Source of the DNA: Pseudomonadales bacterium
Lineage (GTDB): Bacteria > Pseudomonadota > Gammaproteobacteria > Pseudomonadales > Azotimanducaceae
Direction: 5' to 3'
DNA length: 64,000 bases
Assembly (NCBI GenBank): GCA_965200235.1
Contig: OZ241339.1
Span: 372,508-436,507, forward strand
Below the pieces are notes generated by a model. That model was not told the origin of the DNA. It made no database searches and saw nothing but the letters and a program-made list of their open reading frames with translations. This document shows, in pieces, positions 32,211 through 56,561 of this stretch (its first letter is position 1; the number at the start of each line of letters is the position of its first letter). The position numbers and the translations under genes were made by a program.

Positions 32211-32242
32211 GTGATTGTCGCTATATTTTGTAGGAAAAGCTA

Positions 32243-32330: not shown

Positions 32331-32344
32331 GGGGGGGGGGGGGG
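32331..32344 (+). repeat. homopolymeric G14 tract 90 nt upstream of the giant autotransporter start codon
   Basis: Read directly: 14 consecutive G at 32331-32344, between the candidate promoter and ATG 32434. Confidence 0.95.
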
Positions 32345-32433: not shown

Positions 32434-35400
32434 ATGTCCCTAAAGATCATGCCGGGTCTTGTGTCTGAGTTTTTCGGAAGGTGTGCGCGACGCGCTTATC
32501 ACCGAGCGCTGACCACTGTAGCGCTGCTCATCCTGCCGCTCGCGCTTGGGCTCGCGGCAACCCCAACCCTCGCCCAAACCGCCGGCATCCAGCTTAGCCG
32601 CACCACCTTCACGCTCTACGCCGACAACGACGATATCAGCTATTCGGTGAGGCTGCGCTCGCAGCCCTCGGCGGATGTCACGGTCAGGATCCAGCTCGAT
32701 AATTTCGGCGTCTCGCGGGTGATATTCGACAACCCCAATGTCTGCGTGCCCATCCCCGGCGTCACCAACGGCCCCGCGGGCTGCACCAACGGCGTGTTCC
32801 GCTGGCTCGACCTGACGTTCACCAACAGCAACTGGAATCAGTGGCAACAAGTGGATGCGAGCCGTTTCGCCGAAACCGGTTTCTCGGAAGACGGCGACCA
32901 AAGCGCTATCTTCTCGCACACCGCCACATCCTCGGACAACAGCTACAACAACTTGGGCGGCCCGAGCTTCACGGTCACCCCCACCTCCGATAACGACAGC
33001 GAACCCACTTCGGCCTTGACGTTCCTGCCTGCGGCGGTGAGCGTCAACGAGGATTCGACCGACACCTATAGCGTGCGCCTGCGCAGCGACCCGGGCAACG
33101 GCAGCACCGTCACCATCACGCCCAACTCGGGCGGCCTCACCGCGTTCACGGTGGCGCCCACCTCGCTCACCTTCACCGGCGGCGGCTCGGGCACTTGGAG
33201 CACGCCGCAAACCGTCACCATCACGCCGGTGCCCGACGGCGATGCCGGCGACGACACCTACACCATCGCGCACAGCGGCAGCGGCGGCGGCGTCCCGTCG
33301 AACGCTGGCGGCCTGTCGCTCACCATTGTCGATACGGTCTCGCGCGGCATCACATTCAATCCCAAGATGATCGCCCTGCTCGAAGATGACAACAGCACCT
33401 ACACATTCCGCCTAGCGACGCAGCCGAGCGGCAACGTCACCGTGGCGGGCGAGATCGGCGATGTGCGCGTTGCCATCGTGTGCGACCCAAATGCCCCATC
33501 CGGCTCAGATGGCCGATGCCTGACCGGTAGCAGCGACGTCACCCGCACCAACGCGGAGCGGTTCAGCTACACCTTCACCACCACCACTTGGAATCAGCCC
33601 GCGACGGTGGAACTCGTGTCGCAGAGTTCGACTAGCCGAACGTCCACCACCATCTCGCACACGGCCACGGGCGGCGGCTATAACAGCGTTTCGGCATCGC
33701 TGCCGGTAACGTTCGAGCCCCCGACCGAGCCGCGGGTGGTGCTTGAAGTGTCGTCGCAGTCGGCTACCGAAGGCAGCCCGGTCAACGTCACTGTCAACTT
33801 GGAGGGCGGCCCCACGCTCAGTGCCAACACCGTCTTCCCGATTACGATCACCAACGGCAGCGCGGAATCCGCCGACTACACCGCGATCAGCAGCGTCACC
33901 GTGAACGCGGGCGCGCGCAGCGGCAGCGCATCGATTGCGATCACCGACGACAACGTGTTCGAGGCCGCCGAAACCTTCACCGTCGCGCTCGGCACGCTGC
34001 CAAGCGGCGTGCGGAAGTCGCGCCCGGACGAGCCGACATCGTATGAAATCACCATCGCGACAAGTGACAGGCCGGAACTGCGCCTTGAGGCGCCGACTAC
34101 GGTGAACGCGGGCGGACGTCAGCCCGCCCGCCAATTTGAATTCAAGGTGATTGCGAGCAATCCTGCGGACAAGGATATCACCGTGCCGCTCGATGTCACC
34201 ATTACAGTGCCCGTCTCGATAGGGGGGGACGCTGACGGCAACTTGTTAGCTGCCACTGATGGCGGCAGAAAGTTGCTTACGCTTTCTGAAGGCGATACGG
34301 AGGTGAGTTATTCATTATGGGCTTCTGATATCGAAGCCGACAGTTCGCGGGGCAGGGCCGAGGCCGAGATCGTCACTGGCGCCGATTACACCGTCAGCAG
34401 CACCGCAGGCAGCGCCACGGTCACTGTGCAGAATGACTATACAACGTTTATTGGTTTGACGGCGCAAGCTGGCAATATCAGCGAGACCAGCGGCAGCAAG
34501 ACGATCACCATTGCCTTGGAACGCGGCTTGGTGACCCCCGAGGCGCTCGCCGTGCCGCTCGAAATCACCGGCACGGCGGTGCTCGGCACCGACTACACGC
34601 TGAGCGCGCCCCCCACCTTGCCGAGGGGTGTGGCCTACAGCAACCTCGGCAGCACCGACCTCACCAATAGCCCGCCCACGGTCACCTTCACCGGCGGCGC
34701 GACGCTGAGCGCCACCACCGCCACGCTCATCGTATCAGCCACGTCCGATACGCTCGACGAAGCGAATGAAACCATCGGCATCGCGATGGACTCGGCGATC
34801 AATAGCGTCAATGCCGGCACGAACCTTGACGGTGGTGTCCAATTCGAAAGAGATGAGTCGTCGGTAAGTTTCAGCATCACCGACGACGACGACACTCCCG
34901 AAGTCAGCATCACCGGCCCCAACGCCGCGCTCACCGAAGGCGCCACCGCCGAATACACCATCAGCGTTAGCGGCGAGGCGCAGGCCGAATTGTCGATCGG
35001 CCTGACGGTCAGCCAAGTGGGCGCCTTCGTCGATGCCGACGACCTCGGCGCGCAAACCCTGACGCTCGCCTCCGGCGTCACCAGCCTCAATTTTGAGGTC
35101 GTAACGCTCGCCGACTCCGCCGACGAGCGCGACGGCTCGCTCACCGTCGCGCTCAACACAGGCACCGGCTACACCGTCAGTTCCGGCGCGGGCTCGGCGA
35201 CCGTCGCCGTCAACGACAACGACGCCACCTTCGTCGAGATGTCCATCGGCGGGTCGAGTGATGTGGACGAGGCGAGCGGCAGCAAAACCATCACCATCGA
35301 GATTAGCCGCGGCCTCGTGGCGGGCGAAGTGCTCGCCCTGCCGCTTGCGGTTGGCGGCACCGCCACGCTCGGCACCGACTATACCCTCGCCGCGCCCACC

Positions 35401-47400: not shown

Positions 47401-50400
47401 GTTGCCGGCGAAACCGTCAACATCCCGCTGGTCTTCACGGGCGGCACCCCGGGCGAGGATTTCTTCATCCGCACCACGCTCGCCGCTGACGGCACGCCGC
47501 CGAGTTGGCTGAGCATATCCTCGGCGGGCGTGGTGACCATCAGCGGCGGCGAAACCGCCGGGTTCGACACCTATCTTGTCGTGCTTGATGATGACGACGG
47601 CATCGACGAGCGGATCACCCTCTCGTCGATTGGCACCATCACCCATACCGGACTCGGCGGCAGCGCCACCGGCACCATCCGCGCGCCCGCCACGTTCAGC
47701 ATTATCGACAACGACCAGCCGAGCGGCCCGGCGGTGAGCATCGAATCCGACGGCGACGTCACCGAAGGCACCGCTGCGGCCTTCACCCTGAGCGTCTCGC
47801 CGGCGCCGACCGCGGAGCTCGAGGTGTCGCTGACCGTGGCCGAGGAAGGCGGCTTCGTGGACTCCAGCAATACCGGCGCGCAGACCGTCACCATTGCGGC
47901 GGACGCCACTTCCGCGGCCTTCACCGTTGCCACCTTGGGCGACACCGCCGACGAGCCGGACGGCTCGGTGACCGTCACCGTCGCCTCCGGCACCGGCTAC
48001 GAAGTCGACTCGCCGAGTTCGGCCGAAGCGGCAATTGCCGACGACGACGCCACGACCGTAACCTTGGCTGTGACCGACGCGATCGCTACCGAAGGCGATT
48101 CGAGCGCCACCGGCGCGTTCACCGTCACGCTTGGCCGCGCGCTCGTCTCCGGCGAAAGCCTGACCGCGCCGCTCGGCCTGTCCGGCGCCACCGCGGGCGA
48201 CGAGTTCAGGCTTGCGCTCACCGCCGCCAGCGGCATCGGCTTCAACGCTGCGACCAGCACGCTCACCTTCACCGGCGGCACGGGCGCGTCCACGGTCGCC
48301 ACCCTGACCCTCACCGCCGAGGACGACGACAACTTCGCCGACGAGACCTTGACGTTAAGCCTCGGCGCGCTGTCTTCGTCGGGCTTGAGCGGCGGCGTGG
48401 AAGGCACCGGCAGCGGCGATATCGAAATCACCGATGCCGGCGCGCCCGAACCCGTCATCAGCGTCACCGCCGGTGCCGGCATCACCGAAGGCGGCACGGC
48501 GACGTTCACCGTCACCGCGGCACCTGCGCCGACCGCCGAGCTTGAGGTGGCGCTTGCCGTCTCGCAACAAGGCAGCTACGTCGCTTCCGGCAACCTCGGC
48601 AGCGCCAGCGTCACCTTCGCGGCGAACGACGGCAGCGAGACCTTCACCGTCGCCACCCAAGGCGACAACGTTGACGAGCCAAATGGCGCGGTGGTGGTGA
48701 CCGTGGTGAACGGTACCGGCTACGGCCCGTCCTCGACGAGCGGCTCGGCGCAAGTGGCCGTGGCCGACGACGAAGCCACGAGCGTGACTTTGGCCGTGAC
48801 CGACACGACTGCCACCGAGGGCGATTCGAGCGCCACCGCCGCGTTCACCGTGACGCTTGGCCGCGCGCTCGCCGCAGGCGAGGGCATCTCGGTGCCGCTC
48901 ACCTTCACCGGCGGCGATCCCGGCGACGACTTTAGCATGGCGCTCGCCACTGCAACCGGCATCAGCTTCACCGCTGCCACGAGCACGCTCACCTTTACTG
49001 GCAGCGCGAGCGCGGACAGCGTCGCAAATCTCACTTTCACCGCCTTGGAAGACGACAACTTCGTCAACGACACGGTGGGCGTGGCGTTGGGCGCGGTGAC
49101 CGTGACCAACCTCGGCGGCGGCGTCAACGCCTCCGGCAGCGGTAACATCACCGTCACCGACGCCGGTGTGCCGGATCCGGTCATCAGCATCGCTGGCAGC
49201 GCGGGCGTCACCGAAGGCGGCACGGCGACATTCACGGTGACGGCCGCGCCAGTGCAGCCGACTGATACTTCCGTGTCGGTGAATGTGACGCAGGAAGGCA
49301 GCTACGTCGCTGCGGACGATCTCGGCGCCGATACCGTGACAATTCCTGCGAACGCCGCCTCTGCGGACTTCACCGTTGCGACCGTCGGCGACAGCGCCGA
49401 CGAGCCGAACGGCTCGGTGACCGTGACCGTGACCTCCGGCAGCGACTACGAAGTGTCTTCGACCGCAGGCTCGGACGAGGTGGATGTCGCCGACGACGAT
49501 GCGACCACCGTCGTCTTGGCGGTGACCGATGCGACTGCCACCGAAGGCGATTCGACCGCGACCGCCGCGTTCACCGTGACGCTTGGCCGCGCGCTCGCCA
49601 CCGGCGAAGGCTTGACCGTCGCGCTCGGCTTCGCGGGCGGCGCGAGCGGTGATGATTTCACCCTTGCGCTCACTACGGCGACCGGCATCTCCTTTGCGGC
49701 GGCGACCAACACCTTGACCTTCTCGGGCGGTGCGGGCGCTTCGAGCACTGCGACATTGACTTTCAGCGCGGCGAACGATGCCGATACCACCGACGAGACC
49801 GTCACCGTCAGCCTTGGCACCCTAACGCCGTCCGCGCTCGGCGGCGGCGTGATCGGCAGCCGCACCGGCGACGGCGAAATCGTCATCACCGATGCGGGCG
49901 TCGTCGGCGCGGTGATTGTGGCTGGTTCGCCTGTGGCTGTGACCGAAGGCGGCGCAACGGGCAGCTACACGGTCGTGCTCGCGACCGACCCGGGCGCGAT
50001 CGTGACGGTGACGCCAAGTTCTGGCGATACAAGCGCGGTGACGGTATCGGGTGCGCTCACCTTCAACACCGGTAACTGGAGCACGCCGCAGGCCGTGACC
50101 GTGACGCCGGTGAGTGATGGCGACGTGACCAACGAGAGCGTCAGCATCAGCCACGCCGTTTCGGGCTATGCGGGCGTGACGAGTGCGCCGACGGCGACCG
50201 TCACCGTGACTGATCTCGGGCGCGGCGTGGTGGTCGAACCGACTGCGATCGACATCGACCAAGGCGACAGCGAAACCTACAGCGTCGTGCTTGTGAGCGC
50301 GCCGGCGGTCGGCACGACGGTCAGCGTTGTCGCCGCGAGCGGCGATGAAGAGGTCGCGACCGTGAGCGGAACGCCTCTCTTCACGACAGCCAACTGGAGT

Positions 50401-53400
50401 GCGCCGCAGAACGTCACTGTGACTGGCGTCGGTGGCGGCTCGACGAGCATCAGCCACAGCATCACTTCGGCGGACACTGACTATTCGTCGATCACGCCGT
50501 CGGCTGTGTCGGTGTCGGTGACCGCGGTACCGGCCGTGCTGCTGTCCGAATCGACGATCGAAGTCACTGAACGCGGCGAGGACTCTAGCTACGATGTGGT
50601 ACTCGCCACCAATCCGGGGGCCGAAGTGACCGTCACGCCGGTTTCTTCGGATGCGAGCGCGGCGAGCGTTTCCGCTGCGCTGACCTTCAACGCGAGTAAC
50701 TGGAGCACGCCGCAGACCGTGACGGTCTCGCCCGAGATCGACAACGATGCAGTTGGCGAAACAGTAGCGATCTCGCATACGGTGACTGGCTATCAGGGCG
50801 CCTCCGCACCGTCTGATATTGCCGTCACCGTCACTGACTTTGGTCATGCGATCCTCGTCGAACCGACTGCTCTCAGCGTGCCTGCGGGCGAAACCGCGAG
50901 CTACTCGGTGACCATCACCTCGGCGTCCGCAAGCGGCGTGACCCTGACGCCGACAAGCGGCGCGGACGCGACTGCGACGGTCGGTGCCGGCGTGACCTTG
51001 AGCGCGGCTGATGCCAATACAGCCGTCGAGATTGTCGTCACCGGCGTCGCCGTCGGCCAGACCAGCATCACCCATGCGATCGCCACCGTCGACCCGAACT
51101 ACGCGAGCGTGGCGGCGGCGCCGCTCGCAGTGGACGTGACCGCGGCAGCGGGCGTGCGCATCGCGCCGCTGGAACTCGCGCTGACCGAAGGCGGCGAAGA
51201 CGACAGCTACGAAGTGCGGCTCGGCACCGATCCGGGCGCGACCGTCACCGTGACGCCGAGCGCCGGCGATGCAGGTGCCGTGACGGTGTCCGGCGCGCTC
51301 ACCTTCAACTCGACCAACTGGAGCGATCCGCAGACGGTGACCATCGCTGCGGTCGACGACGATGATCGCGACGACGAATCCGTCACCATCACCCACGCGG
51401 TCAGCGGCTATGCGGGCGTCACGAGTGCGCCTGATGTGACGGTGACGGTTTCCGACGACGATCTCTTGCCGACGGTGAGCGTCTCGGCCACTGTGGGCAG
51501 CGTCTCCGAAGGCGGCAACGCGACGTTGCGCGTGAGCGCGACGCCTGCGCCCGCAGCCGACCTTGAGGTGTCCTTGACGCTTGCGGCGCAAGGCGACTTC
51601 TTCGCATCCGACGCGCTTGGCGATGTGACCGCGACAATCGCCGCTGGCGCCGAGTTCGTCAATGTGACGCTGCCAATCCTGAGTGATGAGATCGACGAGC
51701 CGAACGGCTCGCTCAGCGCGACGCTCGTCGCGGGCGACGGCTACCTGCTTGCGGAAGCGCCCGCCAACGCGACGGTCAAGATCATCGCCGACAACGATGC
51801 CACGCAAGTGACGTTGGCATCCGCTGCTGGCGAGGACATCGACGAGGACGGCGGCAGCGCATTGCTGAGAGTAGCGCTTGGTCGGGCGCTGCAGGCTGGG
51901 GAAGCCCTCGAAGTCGTGCTCGAACTCGGCGGCAGCGCCGAGCTCGGCGGCGACTACACGCTTGCGGCGCCTTCGGCCGCGCCTGCGGGTGTCGCCTACA
52001 GCGGATTGGATAGTGCGCCGACGATCACCTTCACCGGCGGCGCAGGGGCATCGGCGAGCGCCGCGCTGCGCTTGGTTGCCGTGTCTGACAGCATTGATGA
52101 AGGCGACGGTGAAAGCGTCACCATTGCGCTTGCCGCGCTCGACTCGAACGCCGGCACGAACCTCGGCGGCGGCGCAAGCGGCACTGGCAGCGTCAGCCTT
52201 GAGATTGTTGATGACGACGATCCCATCGTCCTGCCGACCGTGTCGGTGAGCGCCGGGCCTGCCGCTACCGAAGGTGGTGAAGCGGTGTTCTCGATCTTGG
52301 CGAACCCGGCCCCTGACGGCGAAATCCGTGTTGGTCTTAGCGTGTCCGACAGTGGCGCGTTTGTGGCTGCGGGCGACCTCGGCGAGCGGTTCGTCACGCT
52401 GAGCGCGGCATCGCCTTCGACGAGCGTCTCCGTCGCCACCATTGACGACGAAAATGACGAAGCCGACGGCGCGGTGTCGGTGACTATGCAAGCGGGCGAA
52501 GGCTATGTCCTATCGCGCACCGATGCCTCGGCGTCCGTCAGCGTCTCCGATGACGATGCGACTTCTGTCAGCGTCGCCGCTTCGAGCGAGGACGTTGCCG
52601 AGAACCAGCGTGCGACTGTGACCGTGATGATCGGACGCGCGCTCGCGCCGTCCGAGACGCTCGAAGTCGAGCTTGAGATCAGCGGCGACGCCGTGCTCGG
52701 CGTGGACTACCGCTTGGAGGTGCCCGCCGTGGTGCCGCCGGGCGTCTCGTATGCGATGCTCGACAGCGCGCCGCGTGTCATCTTCACTGGCGGCGTGGCG
52801 GCGTCTCTCTTGGCGCCAATCGTGATCGTGCCGATCGCCGACGATGAGTCGGAAGATGCCGGGGAATCGTTAAGCATCGGTGTCGCGCCGAACGAGGACA
52901 TTGCGCCGAGCGGCGGCGCCATCGGTAGCGAGCCTGTCGATATCGATATCGTCGAGCCGACGGAGCCTGTCGATCCAGTGCCGGGCGGCACTCCGGAAGT
53001 GTCGATCACCGCGAACGCGGCGATCGTCGAAGGCGGCGAGGCGCTGTTCACGCTGTTCGCGAACCCGGCGCCCGAGCGCGATCTCGCGGTGAGCGTGGTG
53101 ATCGCCGAGCAGGGCGGATTCCTGGCCGACGCGACGATGACGGCCTTTGAAGCAACGGTCAAATCCGGCGAAACCTCCACGGTGCTGCGCATCGCCACGG
53201 CGAGGGATGACCTCGACGAAGCCGACGGTGCGGTGAGCGCCACCGTGCAGGCTGGCAGCGGCTATACGCTCGCTGGCGCGCCGGGCAATGCGGCAAGCGT
53301 TGTCGTGACGGACGACGATGCGACCTTCGTGACGCTCAATGTGCCAGCGGACAGCCTTGCCGAAGCGGGCGGCAGCGCCGTGCTCACTGTCAGTCTGGGA

Positions 53401-56262
53401 CGCGCGCTCGTCGCGGGCGAATCGCTGCCAGTAGCCTTGACGTTCGGCGGCAGCGCCACCTTGGGCGCGGACTACGGCCTCGGCGCGCCGAGCGAGCTGC
53501 CTTCCGGTGTCGCCTACAGCGGCATTGATGCCGCCCCCTTGATCACCTTCACTGGCGGCACGGGCGCGGCGGACACCGCGACGCTGACCGTGACGGCGAT
53601 CGCCGACGACATGGCCGAAGCCGAGGACGAGACCATTACGGTTGCGCTCGACATGCTCGATGGCATGTCCGGAACGGGGCTCTCGGGCGGTGCGATGGGC
53701 AGCGGCGAAGGCACCTTGACGATCATCGAGCCTGAAGTGGTGTTCGAGCCGACGCTCCTTGTCTCCGAGACGACGCTGGCGATTACCGAAGGCGGCGAGA
53801 GTTCGTACACGGTCGCGCTCGGCGCCGAGCCGATGGGCGAAGTGACGATTGAGATCGCCGTGACCGGAAGTGCAGCGGTTGAACTCTCCGCGACGAGCCT
53901 GACGTTCACCAGTGAAACCTGGGAGACCGCGCAGCAGGTGACGGTGACGGCGCCCGAGGACGACAACCTTGCAGGCGAGTCGGGAGCGCTGAGTCACACG
54001 GCGTCCGGCGGCGGCTATGATTCGGTTGGCGCGGAAGTCGCGGTGACGGTGGCCGACAACGACGAGGCGTCGCTCGTTGTCTCCGAGACGACGCTGGCGA
54101 TTACCGAAGGCGGCGAGGGTTCGTACACGGTCGCGCTCGGTGCCGAGCCGATGGGCGAAGTGACGATTGAGATCGCCGCGACCGGAAGCGCAGCGGTTGA
54201 ACTCTCCGCGACGAGCCTGACGTTCACCAGTGAAACCTGGGAGACCGCGCAGCAGGTGACGGTGACGGCGCCCGAGGACGACAACCTTGCAGGCGAGTCG
54301 GGAGCGCTGAGTCACACGGCGTCCGGCGGCGGCTATGATTCGGTTGGCGCGGAAGTCGCGGTGACGGTGGCCGACAACGACGAGGCGTCGCTCATTGTCT
54401 CCGAGACCTTGCTCGCGCTCGTTGAAGGCGGCGAAGGGTCGTATACGATCGCGCTCGGCGCTGAGCCGTCGGGAACGGTGACCGTGTCCATCGCGGCCAC
54501 CGGCGATGCGGCGCTTGAACTGTCCGCCATGAGCCTGACGTTCAATGCGGGCAACTGGAACGCGGCGCAGCGCGTGAGCGTGACGGCGAGCGAAGACGAC
54601 AACCTTGCAGACGAGACCGGCTCGCTTGACCACAGCGCGTCGGGCGCCGGCTTTGCTTCGGCGGGCGCCAAAGTGTCCGTGACGGTGACCGACAACGACA
54701 CCGACCTCTCTGCAGCATCGTCCGCCTGGATGGCGCGCTTCGGGCGCACGGTGTCCGAGCAGGTCCTCGAAGGTGTGGGTGATCGCGTGGCCTCGCGGCG
54801 GCGCTTGGACGCCATGCCGTCCGAGGGCGGTGACGCTGAGAATGGCCTCAGCTTCATGGCTACCTTCGCCGGGATGGACATGGACGATCTCGATCTCGAC
54901 GCTTCGCGCGACCCGTTCGCAGGTCAGGCGTCACTTGGACTCACAGGCTTCATGAACCCGCAGCGATTTGCAGGCGGCGGCAGCCGGGGCGTATCCCCAG
55001 GCATGTTCCAGGGCGCATCCCTGAATCCCGATGCCGAAATGTCTGATCGCACCGAACCTGTGTCCGCGCCGCACTCGCAAAAGCAGGCGCTCGAGCAGCT
55101 GCTGCACCGCGCGCTGTCTGGCTCGGCCTTCAACTTGGACGGTCGGCGTTCGGACGGCTCGCAGTGGGGGCTGTGGGGACGCGGCTCGGTCGCTACCCTT
55201 GAGGGCCGATCAAGCGACGGCATCGCGATTGACGGCGATGTCATCACCGGTCAGCTTGGCGCGGACTGGTCGGCGAATCGCTGGCTATTCGGCCTCAGCT
55301 TCTCCTACAGCAAAGGCGACGGCGACTACACTTGGGCGAACGGCAGCGGCGACCTTGAATCGACCATGAGCGCATTCACGCCCTACATCAGCGTCGGCAC
55401 CGACCGCTTCTCTGCGTGGGGTGCGGTGAGCGCCGGGCGCGGCGACATGATGCTCACGCCCGATGAAGGCGCGACCATCGAGACCGATGTCGAGATGGAA
55501 CTCGGCGCTGTTGGGCTGCGCGGCGAACTCTTGAACTTCGGCAACGGCTTCAGCGTGTCGATATTGTCCGATGCCTTCGCCATGCAGTCGAGCGCGGATG
55601 CTGCTGTCGGAATGCCGGAAGCAGAAGTGGATGTGAGCCGCGTCCGCGCCGCGATCGAAGCGGCGTGGAGCCGGCAGATGGCGAACGGCGGCCGCTTCTC
55701 GGCGCGGCTTGAAGGCGGTGTTCGCCAAGACGACGGCGACGCCGAAGAAGGCGTTGGTGGCGAGGTGTCGGGCGGCCTGTCTTGGCGTCACGGCGGACTG
55801 ATTTTCGAGATCGAAGGCCGCAGCCTGGTGACGCACGAGGACGACAACTTCAGCCAAACAGGCGCTTCGGCGCACCTGTCCTGGGATCCGCAACCCGCAT
55901 CCGAGCTCGGGCCCTCGCTCTCCGTGCGCCAGCACTGGGGCGTGTCGACGGCGAGCGGCATCGACCAGATGTTCGAGATGCGCGACATGAACCGCTTCGG
56001 GCTTGAGACCGGCGCGCAGCGGCTCGACACCGAGCTTGGCTGGGGCTTGCCTGCCTTCGGCGACCGCTTCGTGGCGACGCCTTTCCTGCAGCACGGCGCG
56101 CAGGACAGCGCCGAGACGCAGACCTTCGGCTGGCGCCTGGCGCCCTTGGATGCGGAAGGCGAAGTGCTCGACCTCGACATGAGCTTCAAGGCTGTGCGTC
56201 GCATCGGCGTCACTGGCGAAACCGAGCACGGCATCGGTGTCGAGGGGCAGGTTCGCTTCTAG
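32434..56262 (+). CDS. giant (7942 aa) type Va autotransporter with Calx-beta-like / Ig-like repeat passenger
   Basis: One uninterrupted 23.8-kb ORF.
- Signal peptide: ...LLILPLALGLAATPTLAQTAG.
- Passenger: dozens of about 100-120-aa repeats with Calx-beta hallmarks (ITEGG.A.FTV..., ...DEPNGSVTVT...GYTV...A.V.V.DND).
- These alternate with a second repeat type (GETGGSK.ITVTLGRALV.GE.L.VP..F.G.AT.GTDYT...F.I.DDD) and with DPGA.VTVTP...WSTPQTVTVT modules.
- C-terminus: AWMARFGRTVSEQV linker, then a beta-barrel (WGLWGRGSVATLEG ... terminal VRF). Confidence 0.9.
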   Translation: MSLKIMPGLVSEFFGRCARRAYHRALTTVALLILPLALGLAATPTLAQTAGIQLSRTTFTLYADNDDISYSVRLRSQPSADVTVRIQLDNFGVSRVIFDNPNVCVPIPGVTNGPAGCTNGVFRWLDLTFTNSNWNQWQQVDASRFAETGFSEDGDQSAIFSHTATSSDNSYNNLGGPSFTVTPTSDNDSEPTSALTFLPAAVSVNEDSTDTYSVRLRSDPGNGSTVTITPNSGGLTAFTVAPTSLTFTGGGSGTWSTPQTVTITPVPDGDAGDDTYTIAHSGSGGGVPSNAGGLSLTIVDTVSRGITFNPKMIALLEDDNSTYTFRLATQPSGNVTVAGEIGDVRVAIVCDPNAPSGSDGRCLTGSSDVTRTNAERFSYTFTTTTWNQPATVELVSQSSTSRTSTTISHTATGGGYNSVSASLPVTFEPPTEPRVVLEVSSQSATEGSPVNVTVNLEGGPTLSANTVFPITITNGSAESADYTAISSVTVNAGARSGSASIAITDDNVFEAAETFTVALGTLPSGVRKSRPDEPTSYEITIATSDRPELRLEAPTTVNAGGRQPARQFEFKVIASNPADKDITVPLDVTITVPVSIGGDADGNLLAATDGGRKLLTLSEGDTEVSYSLWASDIEADSSRGRAEAEIVTGADYTVSSTAGSATVTVQNDYTTFIGLTAQAGNISETSGSKTITIALERGLVTPEALAVPLEITGTAVLGTDYTLSAPPTLPRGVAYSNLGSTDLTNSPPTVTFTGGATLSATTATLIVSATSDTLDEANETIGIAMDSAINSVNAGTNLDGGVQFERDESSVSFSITDDDDTPEVSITGPNAALTEGATAEYTISVSGEAQAELSIGLTVSQVGAFVDADDLGAQTLTLASGVTSLNFEVVTLADSADERDGSLTVALNTGTGYTVSSGAGSATVAVNDNDATFVEMSIGGSSDVDEASGSKTITIEISRGLVAGEVLALPLAVGGTATLGTDYTLAAPTSLPTGVTYTTLGSAPTVTFTGAATPTASEATLIFTATSDNLDEGDSESFTINLPTLNANSGTNLTGGAAGSDSVALDITDDDPPPALSVSVSPTTAITEGTSVTYTVSAPNPSAEELTIPYTVSQSTGAAFLAADSVGADELTLPAGDTSVTYTLATASDQNDEIDGSFTFALSTPANDAGYTLVSGETSVTTDVRDDDPTTVTLNVPAGAIAENAGSKTLTVVLGRGLVAGERLTVDVRFAGTATYTTDYTVTRPSGSIPAGITYNSFGATTRVFVVGPSANSFGLVVTAVQDNLNEGASESIIASLAPLNASSGTGLSGGASASGGATFAITDDDSGGGATIAADAAMVAEGTAASFTVTLASASVTATTVNYTVSQTGTVLAANAAGNKSVVVAAGETEATFTVGTASDTTDEVSGSVDVTITSGTGYTVGATSTASVEVTDDDPTLVAIAAASDNSALEGSTTDTAMFTVTLGRGLVDGESLEVPLAVTGIAAAEYSLAVAAATGVALSGNTLTFTGPESGASARTATITFTAADDESATDAANEAVAITIPASSASGTPRMTASGLDGGASGSGTAGITIVDKGIAGGAVSVSAGAAVTEGESATFTLAISTASTNPVTVNVTVAETGMVLAANEDGARTVVIPAGETEATFTVGTASDAIDEQSGSVDVTVNTGTGYSVGTNQASVAVADDDPTVVTIAATDGTAIEGDSDATAEFTVTLSRRLVAGESLVVPIGVAGLAARSEYTLALADAEDIALADNDLTFTGVDADSDTTATITLTANADSVASDAANEAVTVTIPASSASGTPRMTASGLAGGASGAGRARITITDAGITAGAVTIARSAASVTEGGTATFTLTSANAASKATTVNVTIAQTGAVVASSNLGAREVVIPANASSVSFTVATTADAIDEPSGTVTATVAAGTGYTVGATSTVSVEVTDNDPTSVTLAATDTAAAEGDSSDTAAFTVTLGRALESGETLVVPIAVAGFASNAEYSLALTAGTGLSLTGNTLTFTGMASAARIATITLSALAETDTSDADNEAVTVTIPASSTAGTSRMTATGLDGGAVGTGSARIAITDAGVAATPGVTLSGGTLVVKENESASYTIVLDTDPGQGSTVTVTPASANTDLSFSPLSVMFTGGASGTWDVPMAVTVTAGADGDVANDSATITHSVSGYTGVATVGDITVSVTDAMHGWVVEPEELTVAVGDTATYTVRLLSEPSRQVRFTASSDSNGTARVAPTDRQNIAPGNWQTGRQMTVNPRRAGTAIITHANNTGSQETSYRSEPIPSVKVLVTASGAPMVSIAADEASFTEDGSATFTVSSDEAAGSGGLLVDLTAVQEGRYADSGLPTDVWILEDQRAATVTVDLEDDSADESDGSLTLTLSSSEDYQVSSSGSATTILVDNDATLVTLARTSGADANIDETAGESSLTVMLGRALVAGEVLSVPLAVTGTATLNTDYTLAAPARRPAGVTYAGLNTASPSITFTGGASSSASASVRVLASSDAAAESDETINIALGTLDANSGTNLDGGASGSGSAAFTIADDDGTGPVISVTAGAAVTEGANASFTVTAAPAPSANLTVNLSVGASGDFVAGTNTGGKTVTIPTGGSATYTVATVGDGVDEPNGSVTLTAVAGQGYSVGNSGSGTVTVNDNDNTSVTLSAPASNIGETGGSKALTVTLGRALVSGETLTVPVNFAGAATRATFGTDYTIASTAATGVAYSALTSSPITITFTGRASASRTATLTLSATGDTTEEPNENIAVSLGAPTANAALGGATGSGTVSFSITDDDGSLPSVTIARSGASVTEGANATFTVTASAAPDANLTVNLNVARVGNFVTSTNAGSKTVTINSGSTTATFNVATAGDTADEADGSVTVSVATGSGYTVGSTSSATVDINDNDATTVTLSAPASNIGETGGSKQITVTLGRALVSGETLTVPVNFAGANPQATFGTDYTVAAPSTVPGGVGYSATTSSPITITFTGGAGASRAATLTLSARGDTSEESDENIALSLGTLGAASLSGGATGSGAPSFQIIDDDASLPVVSVVQGTSPVTEGTPASFTVSVAPTQSAALTVNVNISRVGNFIASGDAGIDTVTIPTAGTVTYSVDTTADTTDEANGSVTLTATAGRGYTVSGSAGSATVAVNDNDNTGVTLSARAGNIGETGGTKELTVTLGRPLAAGETLAVPLTFGGTATFGSDYTLSSPTPRPSGVGYSNLSSTNLTDNPPTITFTGGAAVSRTATLTVSASNNAVEETDETVTVALGTLAANTALGAATGSGTASFSIIDDDDPSLPTVNVAAGAAVAEGGNATFTFSVSPATHPALTVRYTVTQNGSFLTSGALGAGKTVSLAEDAGSATVSIPTVNDSNDEAAGEVTVTLTAQAAYQVGTGSDSVDVTDNDPTSVTITAPSGNIAEDGGTKVITVTLGRALVTGESASVVLDPGGAATLGTDYTLLAPTTVPAGVAYTTLGTAPTITFTGGTAPASATVTLRADDDIRDEGDAETVTVGINGTASSATNLGGGLSGSGSASFSITDDDGTPVVSIAAGATVTEASALATFPITISPAPQENLSLIFFVSQMGDFSEYPGELGLVDFSNDYGPLPLLIGTSTTEITWDLLDDRTDEPSGSITIELRPGNGYRVSSAEGASSATVRVLDNDSSTVTLAVAAGDLTELVSPATDKLTISVNRALVDGEEIAVPIEFAGGAIGTQLSLSMATTTGASLNATTGVLTFSSGGQSATVRIAPLLDPDEIDNTITVSLGTLGLTNIDGGASATGSGSFNIIDAGPQPAVDLSATTVALTEGGAAGTYRVKLHTDPGASVTVTPSSADDTRVTVSGALTFTGGATGTWDDWQTVTLTPLPDGDTASEEVVISHAVTGYGSVISGPDLTVSLVDIGAGVTVTPTSLTVQEGSSANYTVVLNSRPSQNVVITPASSAVANATVGGAVTIMPATWDQPRTVQVTGVDRGSANINHAVTSADSSYSGASASPVAVTVGASPRVRVSTTSVTASERGADGVYMVSLNTDPSGTARVTATRSSDEIAVNGGASATLTFNSSNWQTPQRITVRAQPDYDKDNDTAAITHAVTGYGSVSSGPQVSVSTVDIGATMIYLERSADPINDLNPLAIPDRRVTSLTLNEGESKDFYAVITTRARVIFGSVTFPSDLAVSGGIGGNFRASGQTGSRANLSISATSSGSTSGHVCAYVIDPHPDYPQQTAPTSLSQCNAAYTLPVTVNLGDRVNIEPTTLDIEEGGSAQTYEVWLNTDPSGTATVTPVSPDIGAVTVSGALTFNSRNFGDRQQVTVTPVDDDDRDDETVAITHTVADYSGSASGVTVNVDDDDDLPDISIVATAASVVEGGTASFTISADPAPEASLTVNLTVQQTGDYGIAAGSLGSQTVTIAATETSASFTAATAGDDVDETAGSLAATIATGSGYTVAASPANTATVELRDNDATSVTLAVPAGNIAEADGTKTITVTLGRALVSPEVLPVPLSFLGSATRGTDYALTAPNPVPAGLAFNLSGATPSITFTGPSPEAATFTLASTDDDADEGLSESVSVALGTLNASSGTNLHGGAVGSGSGAFAIEDDETTVVPEVSIAAGAAATEGGNATFTVSVSPAISAALTVALNVTQDGTFVAAGNLGADEVIVPAGEASAVFSVATVNDDLDTADGSVTVTITDDAAYTISSTAAAATADVTDNDATIVTLANDVPVTQEASGTPARFTVSLSRALVTGEAIRAPLSYAGGPNGAFTLSGNPNGIDFTSNVLTFTGGTGAATTATIQFFSSRDQDNEDENYTVSFGTVVGRGLGGGASGAGTAAISVLDDLRATQTISVEATSASIDEGGTATFTVTTSRPYGSQLGGENRTVRVGLRGTGAATLPAEFRSLTFPIGTASLPLSVATQTDDVDRPTGAVIATVQSGSDYVVSSSAGTAEVPVNDDDPTTFTVGLLNATIQLNEEDSVNERTTAGNVLRFSFSRGLVAGETVNIPLVFTGGTPGEDFFIRTTLAADGTPPSWLSISSAGVVTISGGETAGFDTYLVVLDDDDGIDERITLSSIGTITHTGLGGSATGTIRAPATFSIIDNDQPSGPAVSIESDGDVTEGTAAAFTLSVSPAPTAELEVSLTVAEEGGFVDSSNTGAQTVTIAADATSAAFTVATLGDTADEPDGSVTVTVASGTGYEVDSPSSAEAAIADDDATTVTLAVTDAIATEGDSSATGAFTVTLGRALVSGESLTAPLGLSGATAGDEFRLALTAASGIGFNAATSTLTFTGGTGASTVATLTLTAEDDDNFADETLTLSLGALSSSGLSGGVEGTGSGDIEITDAGAPEPVISVTAGAGITEGGTATFTVTAAPAPTAELEVALAVSQQGSYVASGNLGSASVTFAANDGSETFTVATQGDNVDEPNGAVVVTVVNGTGYGPSSTSGSAQVAVADDEATSVTLAVTDTTATEGDSSATAAFTVTLGRALAAGEGISVPLTFTGGDPGDDFSMALATATGISFTAATSTLTFTGSASADSVANLTFTALEDDNFVNDTVGVALGAVTVTNLGGGVNASGSGNITVTDAGVPDPVISIAGSAGVTEGGTATFTVTAAPVQPTDTSVSVNVTQEGSYVAADDLGADTVTIPANAASADFTVATVGDSADEPNGSVTVTVTSGSDYEVSSTAGSDEVDVADDDATTVVLAVTDATATEGDSTATAAFTVTLGRALATGEGLTVALGFAGGASGDDFTLALTTATGISFAAATNTLTFSGGAGASSTATLTFSAANDADTTDETVTVSLGTLTPSALGGGVIGSRTGDGEIVITDAGVVGAVIVAGSPVAVTEGGATGSYTVVLATDPGAIVTVTPSSGDTSAVTVSGALTFNTGNWSTPQAVTVTPVSDGDVTNESVSISHAVSGYAGVTSAPTATVTVTDLGRGVVVEPTAIDIDQGDSETYSVVLVSAPAVGTTVSVVAASGDEEVATVSGTPLFTTANWSAPQNVTVTGVGGGSTSISHSITSADTDYSSITPSAVSVSVTAVPAVLLSESTIEVTERGEDSSYDVVLATNPGAEVTVTPVSSDASAASVSAALTFNASNWSTPQTVTVSPEIDNDAVGETVAISHTVTGYQGASAPSDIAVTVTDFGHAILVEPTALSVPAGETASYSVTITSASASGVTLTPTSGADATATVGAGVTLSAADANTAVEIVVTGVAVGQTSITHAIATVDPNYASVAAAPLAVDVTAAAGVRIAPLELALTEGGEDDSYEVRLGTDPGATVTVTPSAGDAGAVTVSGALTFNSTNWSDPQTVTIAAVDDDDRDDESVTITHAVSGYAGVTSAPDVTVTVSDDDLLPTVSVSATVGSVSEGGNATLRVSATPAPAADLEVSLTLAAQGDFFASDALGDVTATIAAGAEFVNVTLPILSDEIDEPNGSLSATLVAGDGYLLAEAPANATVKIIADNDATQVTLASAAGEDIDEDGGSALLRVALGRALQAGEALEVVLELGGSAELGGDYTLAAPSAAPAGVAYSGLDSAPTITFTGGAGASASAALRLVAVSDSIDEGDGESVTIALAALDSNAGTNLGGGASGTGSVSLEIVDDDDPIVLPTVSVSAGPAATEGGEAVFSILANPAPDGEIRVGLSVSDSGAFVAAGDLGERFVTLSAASPSTSVSVATIDDENDEADGAVSVTMQAGEGYVLSRTDASASVSVSDDDATSVSVAASSEDVAENQRATVTVMIGRALAPSETLEVELEISGDAVLGVDYRLEVPAVVPPGVSYAMLDSAPRVIFTGGVAASLLAPIVIVPIADDESEDAGESLSIGVAPNEDIAPSGGAIGSEPVDIDIVEPTEPVDPVPGGTPEVSITANAAIVEGGEALFTLFANPAPERDLAVSVVIAEQGGFLADATMTAFEATVKSGETSTVLRIATARDDLDEADGAVSATVQAGSGYTLAGAPGNAASVVVTDDDATFVTLNVPADSLAEAGGSAVLTVSLGRALVAGESLPVALTFGGSATLGADYGLGAPSELPSGVAYSGIDAAPLITFTGGTGAADTATLTVTAIADDMAEAEDETITVALDMLDGMSGTGLSGGAMGSGEGTLTIIEPEVVFEPTLLVSETTLAITEGGESSYTVALGAEPMGEVTIEIAVTGSAAVELSATSLTFTSETWETAQQVTVTAPEDDNLAGESGALSHTASGGGYDSVGAEVAVTVADNDEASLVVSETTLAITEGGEGSYTVALGAEPMGEVTIEIAATGSAAVELSATSLTFTSETWETAQQVTVTAPEDDNLAGESGALSHTASGGGYDSVGAEVAVTVADNDEASLIVSETLLALVEGGEGSYTIALGAEPSGTVTVSIAATGDAALELSAMSLTFNAGNWNAAQRVSVTASEDDNLADETGSLDHSASGAGFASAGAKVSVTVTDNDTDLSAASSAWMARFGRTVSEQVLEGVGDRVASRRRLDAMPSEGGDAENGLSFMATFAGMDMDDLDLDASRDPFAGQASLGLTGFMNPQRFAGGGSRGVSPGMFQGASLNPDAEMSDRTEPVSAPHSQKQALEQLLHRALSGSAFNLDGRRSDGSQWGLWGRGSVATLEGRSSDGIAIDGDVITGQLGADWSANRWLFGLSFSYSKGDGDYTWANGSGDLESTMSAFTPYISVGTDRFSAWGAVSAGRGDMMLTPDEGATIETDVEMELGAVGLRGELLNFGNGFSVSILSDAFAMQSSADAAVGMPEAEVDVSRVRAAIEAAWSRQMANGGRFSARLEGGVRQDDGDAEEGVGGEVSGGLSWRHGGLIFEIEGRSLVTHEDDNFSQTGASAHLSWDPQPASELGPSLSVRQHWGVSTASGIDQMFEMRDMNRFGLETGAQRLDTELGWGLPAFGDRFVATPFLQHGAQDSAETQTFGWRLAPLDAEGEVLDLDMSFKAVRRIGVTGETEHGIGVEGQVRF
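53755..54708 (+). repeat. 3 x 318-bp tandem repeat inside the giant gene (copies 1-2 about 98% identical, copy 3 diverged)
   Basis: 53755-54072 and 54073-54390 differ at only a handful of positions (peptide LVSETTLAITEGGE.SYTVALGAEPMGEVTIEIA.TGSAAVELSATSLTFTSETWETAQQVTVTAPEDDNLAGESGALSHTASGGGYDSVGAEVAVTVADNDEAS). 54391-54708 is a diverged third unit. Confidence 0.85.
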
Positions 56263-56308
56263 CGACCTCCGCTCTGCCAACGCAGGAGCAAGAAGCCGGC
56301 GCCGCTAA

Positions 56309-56561
56309 GGAAGGTCTGATCAAGTCTGCAAAGCTCAGAGGTCATGTGGGGTGCGCTGGCAAGGAATGACGAAGAAGCGTGGCAGGCCCCACGTGATGAG
56401 GAATGACGCAGGCAGCGCGCCCCACATGACGTCCCGAAGGGCGCTTCGCGTGGTGGTAGAGACGATTTCGTTGATTTTTTCGGTCACGGTAGTGTAGACG
56501 AGTCAATTTCGATGAGCCAACAAGAGAAGCGCTGAGCGAAGTAGACTTGATCAGACCTTCC
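56309..56561. mobile_element. MITE family D (about 253 bp) with 19-bp TIR and CTAA flanks
   Basis: GGAAGGTCTGATCAAGTCT (56309-56327) and its exact complement at 56543-56561. CTAA lies on both sides (56305-56308, 56562-56565). It has an internal palindrome CATGTGGGGTGCGCTG...CAGCGCGCCCCACATG. Confidence 0.75.

What the first reader, a model, noticed from the sequence alone, without database searches (positions are those of the whole stretch)
32434..56262. 7942-aa autotransporter whose passenger is built from Calx-beta/Ig-like repeats rather than a beta-helix
Seen in sequence:
- One intact 23.8-kb ORF with a Sec signal and about 7,400 aa of alternating repeat modules.
- The repeat types are Calx-beta-like EG..A.F.V...DE.DG...V.L...GY.V modules ending in DNDAT/DDD, and DPGA.VTVTP...W..PQ.VTVT modules.
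- A C-terminal linker and 12-strand-type barrel end in an aromatic residue (VRF).

Established:
- Classical type Va passengers are mostly beta-helical and far smaller.
- Giant Calx-beta/Ig-repeat adhesins are usually exported by type I secretion.

Inference: threading a passenger of about 7,400 aa made of Ca-binding Ig-like domains through a type V route is mechanistically unusual. The gene is also flanked by MITEs or ISs on both sides.
Basis: partly seen in the sequence, partly recalled or inferred. Interest (0 to 1): 0.65.

Follow-up and report, generated by a model that had tools for sequence, protein, structure and literature searches.

The report
Giant sponge-symbiont adhesin with enlarged autotransporter-like barrel
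This is a real, intact 7,942-residue surface protein of an uncultured gammaproteobacterium, most likely a sponge symbiont, made of 60 Calx-beta-like domains anchored by an unusually large autotransporter-like barrel; that barrel defines a big, almost unannotated family that may explain how sponge symbionts display their "eukaryote-like" adhesion domains.

Summary
The 23.8-kb ORF (32434-56262, +) is real. Four independent assemblies carry it intact at 97.5-98.4% amino-acid identity; only the copy number of the last 318-nt repeat varies (2 or 3).

It has a Sec-type signal peptide, then 60 tandem beta-sandwich domains that are all related to each other (21 A, 22 B, 13 C, 4 c). One domain passes the Pfam Calx-beta cutoff clearly; an AlphaFold model of four modules has pLDDT 93. 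Net charge is -704.

The C-terminus is an outer-membrane barrel but not a classical 12-strand autotransporter barrel. PF03797 matches only its first third (26.2 bits, cutoff 26). In distant relatives the model covers about 200 residues and about 165 more follow. AlphaFold predicts about 18 strands.

This barrel module defines a large family (10,750 clusters at 50% identity). Matching loci lie in MAGs of at least six to eight phyla, many with names pointing to sponge metagenomes. Passengers carry Calx-beta, fn3, cadherin, LRR or SRCR domains, with no conserved partner translocator.

Best reading: a self-exporting, type V-like, Ca-stiffened surface fibre for host attachment. Surface exposure, Ca binding and strand count are inferred, not shown. 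MITEs flank the gene as reported.

The parts
32331..32344 (+). Poly-G tract (G14) about 90 nt upstream of the start codon, inside the 273-nt upstream block shared with the other assembly
   Evidence: The other assembly has G12 through a T/G substitution, with the same total length. A possible slipped-strand site; no length variation was seen.
32434..56262 (+). Complete CDS, 7942 aa plus stop
   Evidence: Intact in four assemblies.
32434..32574 (+). Signal peptide, residues 1-47, predicted cleavage TLA|QT
   Evidence: Read from the translation. Relatives also start with signal-like N-termini.
32587..34068 (+). Membrane-distal domains 1-4 (residues 52-545). They are divergent; domains 1 and 3 carry Cys-pair loops (C104/C117, C350/C362). 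Domain 4 is the best Pfam Calx-beta match.
   Evidence: PF03160 scores 50.8 bits at residues 446-541.
34084..38667 (+). A-B didomain block 1 (domains 5-16, six pairs)
38689..39318 (+). C-c spacer (domains 17-18). Domain 18 holds the small indels that differ between strains.
39337..43809 (+). A-B didomain block 2 (domains 19-30, six pairs)
43825..44763 (+). C-c-C spacer (domains 31-33)
44764..45171 (+). Non-repeat insert (residues 4111-4246) with a Cys pair (C4209/C4231); no family match
45172..45474 (+). C-type domain 34
45487..49896 (+). A-B didomain block 3 (domains 35-46, six pairs)
   Evidence: The modelled segment A-B-C-c (residues 5581-6034) has pLDDT 93.4.
49912..51462 (+). C-c-C-c-C spacer (domains 47-51)
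51475..53730 (+). A-B didomain block 4 (domains 52-57, three pairs)
53755..54699 (+). Three similar C-type domains (58-60), the only DNA-level tandem array (318 nt x 3, 86% matches). Copy number is 3 here and 2 in other assemblies.
54724..54807 (+). Conserved segment H1 (AWMARFGRTVSEQVLEGVGDRVASRRRL; family consensus AWLARFGRTVAEQV..AV..R) directly after the last domain. Its helical character is assumed, because it lies outside the modelled region.
54808..55071 (+). Variable Gly/Asp/Met-rich linker (residues 7459-7546), low model confidence
55072..55146 (+). Conserved helix H2 plus a short strand (family consensus SR..T.R.LL.GSSF.LT) immediately before the barrel
55162..56259 (+). Outer-membrane beta-barrel (residues 7577-7942), about 18 predicted strands, ending in VRF. 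PF03797 matches only the first ~95 residues.
31701..31973 (.). 273-nt palindromic MITE-like element upstream; second copy at 29847-30119 (97%)
31456..31706 (.). 251-nt MITE-like element with 33-nt perfect terminal inverted repeats; second copy at 21526-21774 (90%)
32026..32258 (-). Truncated second copy of the YhgA/Rpn (Transposase_31) gene, directly upstream of the giant gene. The shared block with the other assembly starts inside it, at 32161.
56306..56564 (.). 259-nt MITE-like element immediately downstream. It is also present in the other genomic context, and synteny between the two assemblies breaks exactly at its right end.

Best explanation
The gene encodes a giant, self-exporting outer-membrane adhesin or fibre of an uncultured gammaproteobacterium that most likely lives in sponges. 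Proposed mechanism: (1) The precursor crosses the inner membrane through Sec (signal peptide, residues 1-47). (2) The C-terminal module (conserved segment H1, variable linker, helix H2, then a barrel of about 18 strands ending in an aromatic residue) is inserted into the outer membrane by the BAM machinery. (3) The passenger is threaded to the cell surface from its C-terminal end, as in type V secretion, with no dedicated partner protein. Sequential folding of the small beta-sandwich domains outside the cell gives the vectorial pull. (4) Outside, 60 Calx-beta-like domains with acidic junctions (DNDAT/DDD, D..DE; net charge -704) bind seawater Ca2+ and stiffen into a rod roughly 0.2-0.25 um long. 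Its membrane-distal N-terminal domains, and perhaps the central insert, carry disulfide-bonded loops that could act as binding sites. (5) The fibre attaches the bacterium to sponge matrix or to other cells. The sponge's own Aggregation Factor is built of Calx-beta domains, so Ca-dependent Calx-beta to Calx-beta contact is one candidate. Shown: the ORF and its integrity, the domain anatomy, the beta-sandwich fold prediction, the presence of a beta-barrel with partial autotransporter similarity, the family's size and passenger types, and the absence of partner genes. Inferred: surface exposure, BAM dependence, direction of threading, Ca2+ binding, rod length, the sponge habitat of this organism, and the host ligand.
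For: ORF integrity across four assemblies at 97.5-98.4% identity, with only in-frame indels. 60 related domains in the order CCC-B-(AB)6-Cc-(AB)6-CcC-insert-C-(AB)6-CcCcC-(AB)3-CCC. Internal A-B copies are 34-68% identical to the reference copy, so they are old, maintained repeats. Pfam Calx-beta scores 50.8 bits for domain 4 and 27-31 bits elsewhere. The AlphaFold A-B-C-c model has pLDDT 93.4 and is all-beta; Foldseek hits are tandem Ig-like arrays including the NCX1 Calx-beta pair. The barrel model has core pLDDT about 85-93, a helix and then about 18 strands. PF03797 gives 26-33 bits on profile positions 1-95 in close relatives, and 39-41 bits on positions 1-212 in distant relatives, with about 165 residues left over. 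TIGR01414 gives 25.5 bits against a cutoff of 16 in one relative. The barrel family has 10,750 clusters, always C-terminal, ending in W or F. A canonical Calx-beta sits next to the barrel in most relatives, and other passengers carry fn3, cadherin, LRR, He_PIG or SRCR. No T1SS, TpsB, Omp85 or POTRA in the window or in the protein, and no conserved translocator next to 80 related loci. All Cys outside the signal peptide occur in close pairs, as expected for an extracytoplasmic protein. Habitat: the contig name ROBB21-1 and MAG names (COS, CAR and RHO bins, Ca. Poriferihabitaceae) point to sponge metagenomes. Literature: Calx-beta is enriched in sponge symbionts (PMC9531527, PMC11706023); Aggregation Factor is Calx-beta-rich (PMC5400394, PMC11670116).
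Against: No experimental data of any kind. Similarity to autotransporter barrels is marginal and partial in this protein: 26.2 bits against a cutoff of 26, no hit at all when a 542-aa slice was scanned, no NCBIfam hit, no PDB sequence hit, and no hhalign hit to an Ag43-family profile. The Foldseek matches of the barrel are generic and poor (TM about 0.4, rmsd 13-16 A; BrkA at rank 24, TMt 0.48). The strand count rests on one AlphaFold run with 21 sequences, and I could read only its secondary-structure string, not its coordinates, so barrel closure and whether a helix sits in the lumen are unknown. The modelled segment also omitted H1. An even-stranded barrel leaves an N-terminal extension in the periplasm unless a segment crosses the pore, and that crossing is not shown. 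The Ca-binding motifs are inferred from sequence only. Codon differences between strains (24 synonymous and 42 non-synonymous in 2218 codons) suggest only mild constraint on the repeats. The sponge habitat is inferred from record names and was not checked against sample metadata.
Confidence: 0.6

Rival explanations
1. It is an ordinary type Va autotransporter with a classical 12-strand barrel. On this view the extra predicted strands are a modelling artefact or long loops, and only the passenger is unusual.
For: PF03797 and TIGR01414 do hit the start of the barrel. PGAP already names several relatives 'autotransporter outer membrane beta-barrel domain-containing protein'. A helix precedes the barrel.
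Against: The barrel region is about 365 residues, against 255 positions in the Pfam model. AlphaFold places confident, short-looped strands throughout. The BrkA barrel superposes poorly (TMt 0.48). hhalign to the Ag43 family is negative.
Confidence: 0.15
2. Same export route, but the passenger is cleaved off and released, forming an extracellular Ca-dependent matrix or biofilm scaffold instead of staying as a cell-anchored fibre.
For: Many autotransporter passengers are released (own knowledge). A long, variable, probably disordered linker (residues 7459-7546) lies between the last domain and the barrel.
Against: No protease domain or recognisable cleavage motif was found. The conserved H1 and H2 segments suggest a structural role for the junction. 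Nothing tests this either way.
Confidence: 0.1
3. The barrel is just a porin-like membrane anchor, and the 7,400-aa array stays in the periplasm or serves a non-adhesive envelope role.
For: With an even number of strands both barrel ends face the periplasm by default. Passage of a segment through the pore was not shown.
Against: A rod of about 0.2 um cannot fit a periplasm. Relatives carry typical extracellular interaction domains (SRCR, cadherin, LRR, fn3). The conserved segments before the barrel resemble the autotransporter linker arrangement.
Confidence: 0.06
4. The protein is exported by type I secretion or by a two-partner (TpsB) system encoded elsewhere, like other giant Calx-beta or BIg adhesins.
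For: Giant Ca-binding repeat adhesins are usually T1SS substrates (own knowledge). Only 64 kb of the genome was inspected.
Against: There is an N-terminal Sec signal. No RTX/HemolysinCabind repeats, TPS domain or POTRA were found. The C-terminus is a barrel with an aromatic end, not a T1SS signal. No ABC/MFP/TolC or TpsB gene lies in the window or recurs near 80 related loci.
Confidence: 0.03
5. The ORF is an assembly chimera or a decaying pseudogene.
For: One short-read contig breaks or collapses in the last repeat array and has broken gene calls. The gene sits among MITEs and IS remnants.
Against: Four independent assemblies, one on a 3.36-Mb contig, keep a 23.5-23.8 kb frame open with about 2% divergence. 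Apart from one array, the repeats are too diverged at DNA level to collapse.
Confidence: 0.01

Closest known systems
Classical (type Va) autotransporters, e.g. Ag43, BrkA, EspP (Pfam PF03797, TIGR01414)
   Same: The order Sec signal, passenger, helix, C-terminal barrel. Aromatic C-terminal residue. No partner gene. Local HMM similarity over the first strands of the barrel.
   Different: The barrel is about 365 aa with about 18 predicted strands instead of 12. There is a second conserved segment (H1) and an ~88-aa variable linker upstream of the barrel. The passenger is a chain of beta-sandwich domains, with no beta-helix or autochaperone hit. Profile comparison with the Ag43 barrel family is negative.
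Inverse autotransporters (type Ve: intimin, invasin)
   Same: A type V barrel exports and anchors a tandem array of Ig-like domains that forms a rod (own knowledge; review PMC6555100, listed but not read). This shows such passengers are compatible with type V export.
   Different: There the barrel is N-terminal and has 12 strands, and the passenger is C-terminal. Here the order is the classical one and the barrel is larger. No Pfam barrel family other than PF03797 (and DUF6850 at E 0.05) appeared when the C-terminus was scanned up to E = 10.
Giant T1SS repeat adhesins (LapA, SiiE, MpIBP and other RTX adhesins)
   Same: Huge size, dozens of about 100-aa Ca-binding beta-sandwich repeats including Calx-beta, extreme acidity, and a presumed role as a Ca-stiffened stalk with binding modules at the far end (LapA's Calx-beta domain is mentioned in PMC7616799).
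   Different: Those have no Sec signal, a C-terminal RTX/T1SS signal, an N-terminal retention module and adjacent ABC/MFP/TolC genes. None of these is present here.
Sponge Aggregation Factor proteins and the 'eukaryote-like' Calx-beta, cadherin and fn3 proteins of sponge symbionts
   Same: Long Calx-beta arrays acting outside the cell in a Ca-dependent setting (PMC5400394, PMC11670116). Calx-beta, cadherin and fn3 are enriched and laterally transferred in sponge symbionts (PMC9531527, PMC11706023, PMC8163846). FN3/cadherin proteins with an 'autotransporter domain' were reported in Ca. Synechococcus feldmannii and spongiarum (PMC6506613).
   Different: Aggregation Factor is a host protein. The symbiont papers count domains and do not define the shared C-terminal barrel module, its size or its family-wide distribution. 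No paper found here describes it.

Membership tests
Type Va (classical) autotransporter | N-terminal Sec signal peptide | tested here: met
   Read from the translation: basic n-region, about 20-residue hydrophobic core, TLA|Q site. No signal-peptide predictor was available.
Type Va (classical) autotransporter | C-terminal domain matches the autotransporter beta-domain models (PF03797, TIGR01414) over their length | tested here: inconclusive
   This protein: 26.2 bits against a cutoff of 26, profile positions 1-94 of 255 only; no hit with a longer slice; no NCBIfam hit. Relatives: 30-41 bits, at most positions 1-212. TIGR01414 gives a local 25.5 bits in one relative.
Type Va (classical) autotransporter | 12-stranded beta-barrel | tested here: not met
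   AlphaFold gives about 18 strands over 365 residues. Superposition on BrkA is poor. This is a prediction only, and the coordinates were not inspected.
Type Va (classical) autotransporter | Alpha-helical linker occupying the barrel lumen | not testable with these tools
   A helix (residues 7547-7561) is predicted just before the barrel, and a second conserved segment (7431-7458) lies upstream. Their position relative to the pore could not be read from the output.
Type Va (classical) autotransporter | Self-sufficient: no dedicated translocator gene | tested here: met
   None in the 64-kb window. No conserved outer-membrane partner near 80 related loci.
Type Va (classical) autotransporter | Beta-helical passenger with autochaperone (typical, not strictly defining) | tested here: not met
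   No Pertactin, AC_1 or PATR hits. The passenger is 60 beta-sandwich domains.
Calx-beta domain (PF03160) | HMM match above the gathering score | tested here: met
   50.8 bits at residues 446-541. Other segments score 27.3 and 30.7 bits (cutoff 27) or 22.7 bits. All 60 domains are linked to each other by iterated self-HMMs. Relatives have strong Calx-beta hits next to the barrel, up to 129.6 bits.
Calx-beta domain (PF03160) | Beta-sandwich fold | tested here: met
   AlphaFold pLDDT 93.4, all-beta. NCX1 CBD1-CBD2 is among the Foldseek hits (ranks 32 and 43), along with many other Ig-like arrays.
Calx-beta domain (PF03160) | Ca2+ binding by acidic loop residues | not testable with these tools
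   Conserved D..DE and DNDAT/DDD motifs at domain ends, 941 Asp+Glu against 237 Lys+Arg. Binding itself was not tested.
T1SS RTX adhesins | C-terminal RTX repeats and secretion signal, no Sec signal, adjacent ABC/MFP/TolC genes | tested here: not met
   No HemolysinCabind hits. A Sec signal is present. The C-terminus is a barrel. No T1SS genes in the window.
Type Vb/Vd (TpsB, PlpD) | POTRA domain(s) plus a 16-strand Omp85 barrel | tested here: not met
   No POTRA, Omp85 or ShlB hits in the C-terminal 542 aa or in relatives.
Type Ve (inverse autotransporter) | N-terminal barrel with a C-terminal passenger | tested here: not met
   The barrel is C-terminal. No barrel-type Pfam hit in the N-terminal 1000 aa apart from a sub-threshold DNAJC11 beta-barrel match of 19.2 bits.

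The most novel reading that the evidence does not exclude
The C-terminal module is a distinct, so far undescribed subclass of type V secretion. It would be an enlarged, roughly 18-strand, autotransporter-derived barrel specialised for exporting chains of Ig-like, 'eukaryote-like' domains. It would have spread by lateral transfer (partly on conjugative elements) through sponge symbionts of many phyla, and serve as their general platform for displaying host-interaction proteins. In this giant member, the Calx-beta fibre would engage the sponge's own Calx-beta Aggregation Factor in a Ca-dependent way, so that the symbiont is recognised as 'self-like' or is held in the tissue.
Probability: 0.25. 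Interest if true: 0.85.

Novelty: new variant of a known kind. Interest (0 to 1): 0.62.

Why it matters
Sponge-symbiont genomics has repeatedly found enrichment and lateral transfer of Calx-beta, cadherin, fn3, LRR and similar domains. It has also noted that few lineages encode recognisable secretion systems (PMC8163846). A single self-contained barrel module attached to these passengers, found in MAGs of many phyla, offers a concrete and testable answer to how such proteins reach the cell surface.

For type V secretion, an autotransporter-like barrel with about six extra strands that carries up to 7,400 residues of beta-sandwich domains would widen the accepted limits of barrel size, passenger fold and passenger length.

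The family is large (about 10,750 clusters at 50% identity). Public records call its members 'hypothetical protein' or give them a generic autotransporter label, so a dedicated model would improve annotation of many marine metagenomes.

Tried and rejected
1. Pfam and NCBIfam on a 542-aa C-terminal slice gave nothing. A 442-aa slice gave the marginal PF03797 hit.

2. PDB sequence and profile searches with the barrel, the A-B profile, the C-type profile and the insert gave only spurious or weak hits.

3. Foldseek of the barrel model returned generic large barrels (TonB-dependent receptors, LptD, TamA) with poor superposition, so no specific structural relative was identified.

4. hhalign of the family against the single Ag43 barrel sequence, and against an alignment of Ag43-like barrels, found no similarity. 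The Ag43 homolog search returned almost only near-identical E. coli copies and the resulting alignment was poor.

5. An even/odd hydrophobicity test of the predicted strands was clear for most of strands 9-18 but weak for strand 12 and for the long strands 1-5. It neither confirms nor refutes the strand count.

6. Promoter and terminator scans around the gene found nothing useful.

7. The poly-G tract was compared between assemblies. There is no length difference, only a substitution, so phase variation is not supported by these data.

8. I looked for a conserved partner gene next to 80 family loci. None looked like an outer-membrane translocator; the recurrent neighbours are a small unknown ORF and conjugation genes.

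The full C-terminal module, including H1, therefore could not be modelled.
Full report
THE OBSERVATION

The window holds one uninterrupted ORF at 32434..56262 (+) of 7942 codons. G+C rises to 0.65-0.70 across it.

An exact-sequence look-up finds this protein on a 3.36-Mb contig. It also finds a 7942-aa variant on an independent 47-kb MAG contig, which NCBI calls 'hypothetical protein OXE81_02395 [Gammaproteobacteria bacterium]', and a 7837-aa variant. A 7836-aa variant lies on a fourth contig.

Aligned, the four versions are 97.5-98.4% identical. They differ only by in-frame indels: one 106-aa repeat, and small indels in domain 18.

One short-read contig from a metagenome scaffold named ROBB21-1 (SAMN13943197) collapses one repeat and has broken gene calls there. 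At DNA level only 53745-54699 is a tandem array (318 nt x 3, 86% matches). The ORF is therefore not an assembly artefact; only that array's copy number is uncertain.

Codon differences between two versions are 24 synonymous and 42 non-synonymous in the first 2218 codons, and 14 and 15 in the C-terminal segment. That points to mild constraint on sequence and strict maintenance of the frame.

ANATOMY OF THE PASSENGER

The N-terminus reads as a Sec signal with a TLA|Q site after residue 47.

Iterated self-HMM searches resolve 60 tandem domains between residues 52 and 7422, with a single 136-aa non-repeat insert at 4111-4246. All four seed models converge on the same set, so the domains are one superfamily.

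Stricter subtype models give 21 A (about 105 aa), 22 B (about 135 aa), 13 C and 4 c (about 100 aa each). Their order is CCC-B-(AB)6-Cc-(AB)6-CcC-insert-C-(AB)6-CcCcC-(AB)3-CCC.

The A-B copies are 34-68% identical to the reference copy. The B module shows the Calx-beta hallmark G.AT.G.DY...F.G....D...E..E. Both A and B end in DNDAT/DDD. The C module has the W..PQ.VTVT...H pattern.

Pfam Calx-beta scores 50.8 bits for domain 4 and 27-31 bits elsewhere; fn3_6 is marginal.

An AlphaFold model of A-B-C-c (residues 5581-6034, using the internal repeats as the alignment) has mean pLDDT 93.4 and is all-beta. Foldseek returns tandem Ig-like arrays, including the Calx-beta pair of NCX1.

The protein has 941 Asp+Glu against 237 Lys+Arg. 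Its six Cys residues outside the signal peptide form three close pairs, in domains 1 and 3 and in the insert.

THE C-TERMINAL MODULE

A 542-aa slice gives no Pfam or NCBIfam hit. A 442-aa slice gives PF03797 at 26.2 bits (cutoff 26) over profile positions 1-94 of 255. Close relatives behave the same way.

Two distant relatives pass the threshold comfortably (41 and 39 bits). Even there the model covers only positions about 1-212 over about 200 residues, and some 165 residues follow where about 45 model positions remain.

AlphaFold on the last 442 residues predicts a helix and then about 18 short-looped strands over 365 residues; core pLDDT is about 85-93. Foldseek finds only generic large barrels with poor superposition, and the BrkA autotransporter barrel ranks 24th with TMt 0.48.

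Profile comparison with an Ag43-family barrel alignment is negative, though that alignment was shallow.

My reading is that the barrel is related to autotransporter barrels over roughly its first ten strands and carries about six additional strands. This rests on one model whose coordinates I could not inspect. The model also omitted the conserved H1 segment.

THE FAMILY

An exhaustive HMM search with the family profile finds 10,750 cluster representatives (50% identity) at E <= 0.001, and 6,070 at E <= 1e-30. The best 150 all match the whole module, almost always at or within about 50 residues of the C-terminus of proteins of 506-7836 aa. They end in W or F in 139 of 147 cases.

The conserved layout is a canonical Calx-beta domain, then 'AWLARFGRTVAEQV', a variable linker, 'SR..T.R.LL.GSSF.LT', and then the barrel with motifs such as LWGRGA and DGGDAETGFG.

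Passengers also carry He_PIG, cadherin-like, fn3, LRR, SRCR or choice-of-anchor R domains.

Among one-genome-per-species records, at least 460 loci are confirmed. The 80 best are all MAGs. They are labelled Alpha- and Gammaproteobacteria, Arenicellales, Ca. Poriferihabitaceae, Binatia, Nitrospirales, Spirochaetia, Vicinamibacteria, Syntrophobacterales and one Acidimicrobiales bin. Several genomes hold multiple copies.

Many isolate names (COS, CAR, RHO and SB bins) and the name Poriferihabitaceae point to sponge metagenomes. That is my inference from names, not a tested enrichment.

Public names for family members are 'hypothetical protein' or PGAP's generic autotransporter-barrel label, for example in Ca. 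Synechococcus spongiarum.

CONTEXT

The window has no T1SS, TpsB, Omp85 or other secretion gene. The neighbours are helicase/nuclease genes, ThiF, TnpB, an AAA ATPase, a methyltransferase, DapD, DapE and an H+-pyrophosphatase.

The giant gene is the only member of the barrel family and of the repeat family in the window.

Near 80 related loci no outer-membrane partner recurs. The family genes are often in tandem.

The block from 32161 to the end of the downstream MITE (56564) is shared at 98-99% with another assembly, where the genes beyond it are different.

MECHANISM

The most economical model has four steps:
- Sec export across the inner membrane.
- BAM-dependent insertion of the barrel into the outer membrane.
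- Type V-like threading of the passenger from its C-terminal end, with folding of the small domains outside the cell.
- Ca-dependent stiffening into a rod of roughly 0.2-0.25 um, assuming about 4 nm per domain (my estimate).

Binding would be by the membrane-distal N-terminal domains. All steps after the anatomy are inference.

Type Ve proteins show that Ig-like arrays can pass through a type V barrel (own knowledge), so the passenger fold alone is not a mechanistic paradox. The size, the classical orientation and the enlarged barrel are the unusual parts.

COMPARISON AND NOVELTY

Calx-beta, cadherin and fn3 domains are known to be enriched, and partly laterally transferred, in sponge symbionts (PMC9531527, PMC11706023, PMC8163846).

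FN3/cadherin proteins with an 'autotransporter domain' were seen in sponge cyanobacterial symbionts (PMC6506613).

Robbins et al. note that few sponge symbiont lineages encode recognisable secretion systems (PMC8163846).

The sponge Aggregation Factor is itself rich in Calx-beta domains (PMC5400394, PMC11670116).

I found no paper that defines this barrel module, its extra strands or its distribution. The library searched is not complete.

VERDICT

I rate this a new variant of a known kind: a type V-like autotransporter family with an enlarged barrel and Ig-like passengers. This gene is its largest member among the relatives whose lengths were tabulated.

Interest is 0.62. The object is real and the family-level picture is worth following up. 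The key structural and functional claims are still predictions.

Noticed in passing
window 32331-32344: A G14 homopolymer about 90 nt upstream of the giant gene's start codon. The other assembly has G12 because of a T/G substitution, with the same total length. It could be a slipped-strand phase-variation site, but no length polymorphism was seen.
   Followed up: partly
window 32161 and 56564; L083 141 and about 24300: The giant gene, its 273-nt upstream region and the downstream MITE form a block shared at 98-99% with contig k141_5750. Beyond both ends the genes differ: P450 and DNA methyltransferases there, H+-pyrophosphatase here. The downstream break is exactly at the MITE's right terminal repeat. 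In L083 that MITE also carries a 65-nt nested insertion.
   Followed up: partly
window 28295-28470, 29847-30119, 31701-31973, 31456-31706, 21526-21774: Several MITE-like families with 28-34-nt terminal inverted repeats. The 273-nt element is itself palindromic and present twice (97%). The 251-nt element has a second copy 10 kb upstream (90%).
   Followed up: partly
window 28467-29782: A 1316-bp stretch bounded by 20-nt inverted repeats (CTAGCAGCCTGTTGAAAAAG). It has long ORFs on both strands (424 and 434 aa) with no Pfam match. It may be an uncharacterised insertion sequence.
   Followed up: partly
window 30300-31316 (-) and 32026-32258 (-): A YhgA/Rpn-type (Transposase_31) gene and a truncated second copy (73-84% identical fragments) directly upstream of the giant gene.
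   Followed up: partly
window 60048-60242 and 62378-62701: Clusters of a GGGACACACAC-containing repeat (about 6 direct copies), and inverted copies 2.2-2.5 kb away. They bracket the minus-strand genes at 60254-62454, one of which has a VWA domain. Unexplained.
   Followed up: no
window 16000-25300: A lower-GC stretch (0.54-0.58 against 0.61-0.64 in the flanking sequence) carrying ThiF-family, TnpB (IS605 OrfB), AAA_21/AbiEii-like ATPase and an Eco57I/N6-methyltransferase-like gene. It looks like a mobile or defence island.
   Followed up: partly
L004, L013, L039, L043, L045, L048, L056, L061, L081 (about 1-5 kb downstream of the barrel gene): In about 9 of 80 related loci the barrel-family gene sits directly upstream of an HTH gene and an F-type conjugation operon (TraL, TraE, TraK, TraB/TrbI, TraV; Pfam-confirmed). 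Some members therefore appear to ride on conjugative elements.
   Followed up: yes
22 of 80 related loci, e.g. L020 7332-7865: A small ORF (about 177 aa, no Pfam match) lies immediately downstream of the barrel gene on the same strand in 22 loci. It often precedes the conjugation genes. Function unknown.
   Followed up: partly
L005, L008, L012, L027, L044, L066, L076: Barrel-family genes often occur as adjacent pairs, and several genomes hold four or more copies.
   Followed up: no
window 44764-45171 (residues 4111-4246): The only non-repeat segment of the passenger. It has a Cys pair (C4209/C4231) and no Pfam or PDB match. It may be a mid-fibre functional module.
   Followed up: partly
P0107: One family member carries a scavenger-receptor cysteine-rich (SRCR) domain (91.8 bits) as passenger, a domain typical of animals.
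   Followed up: no
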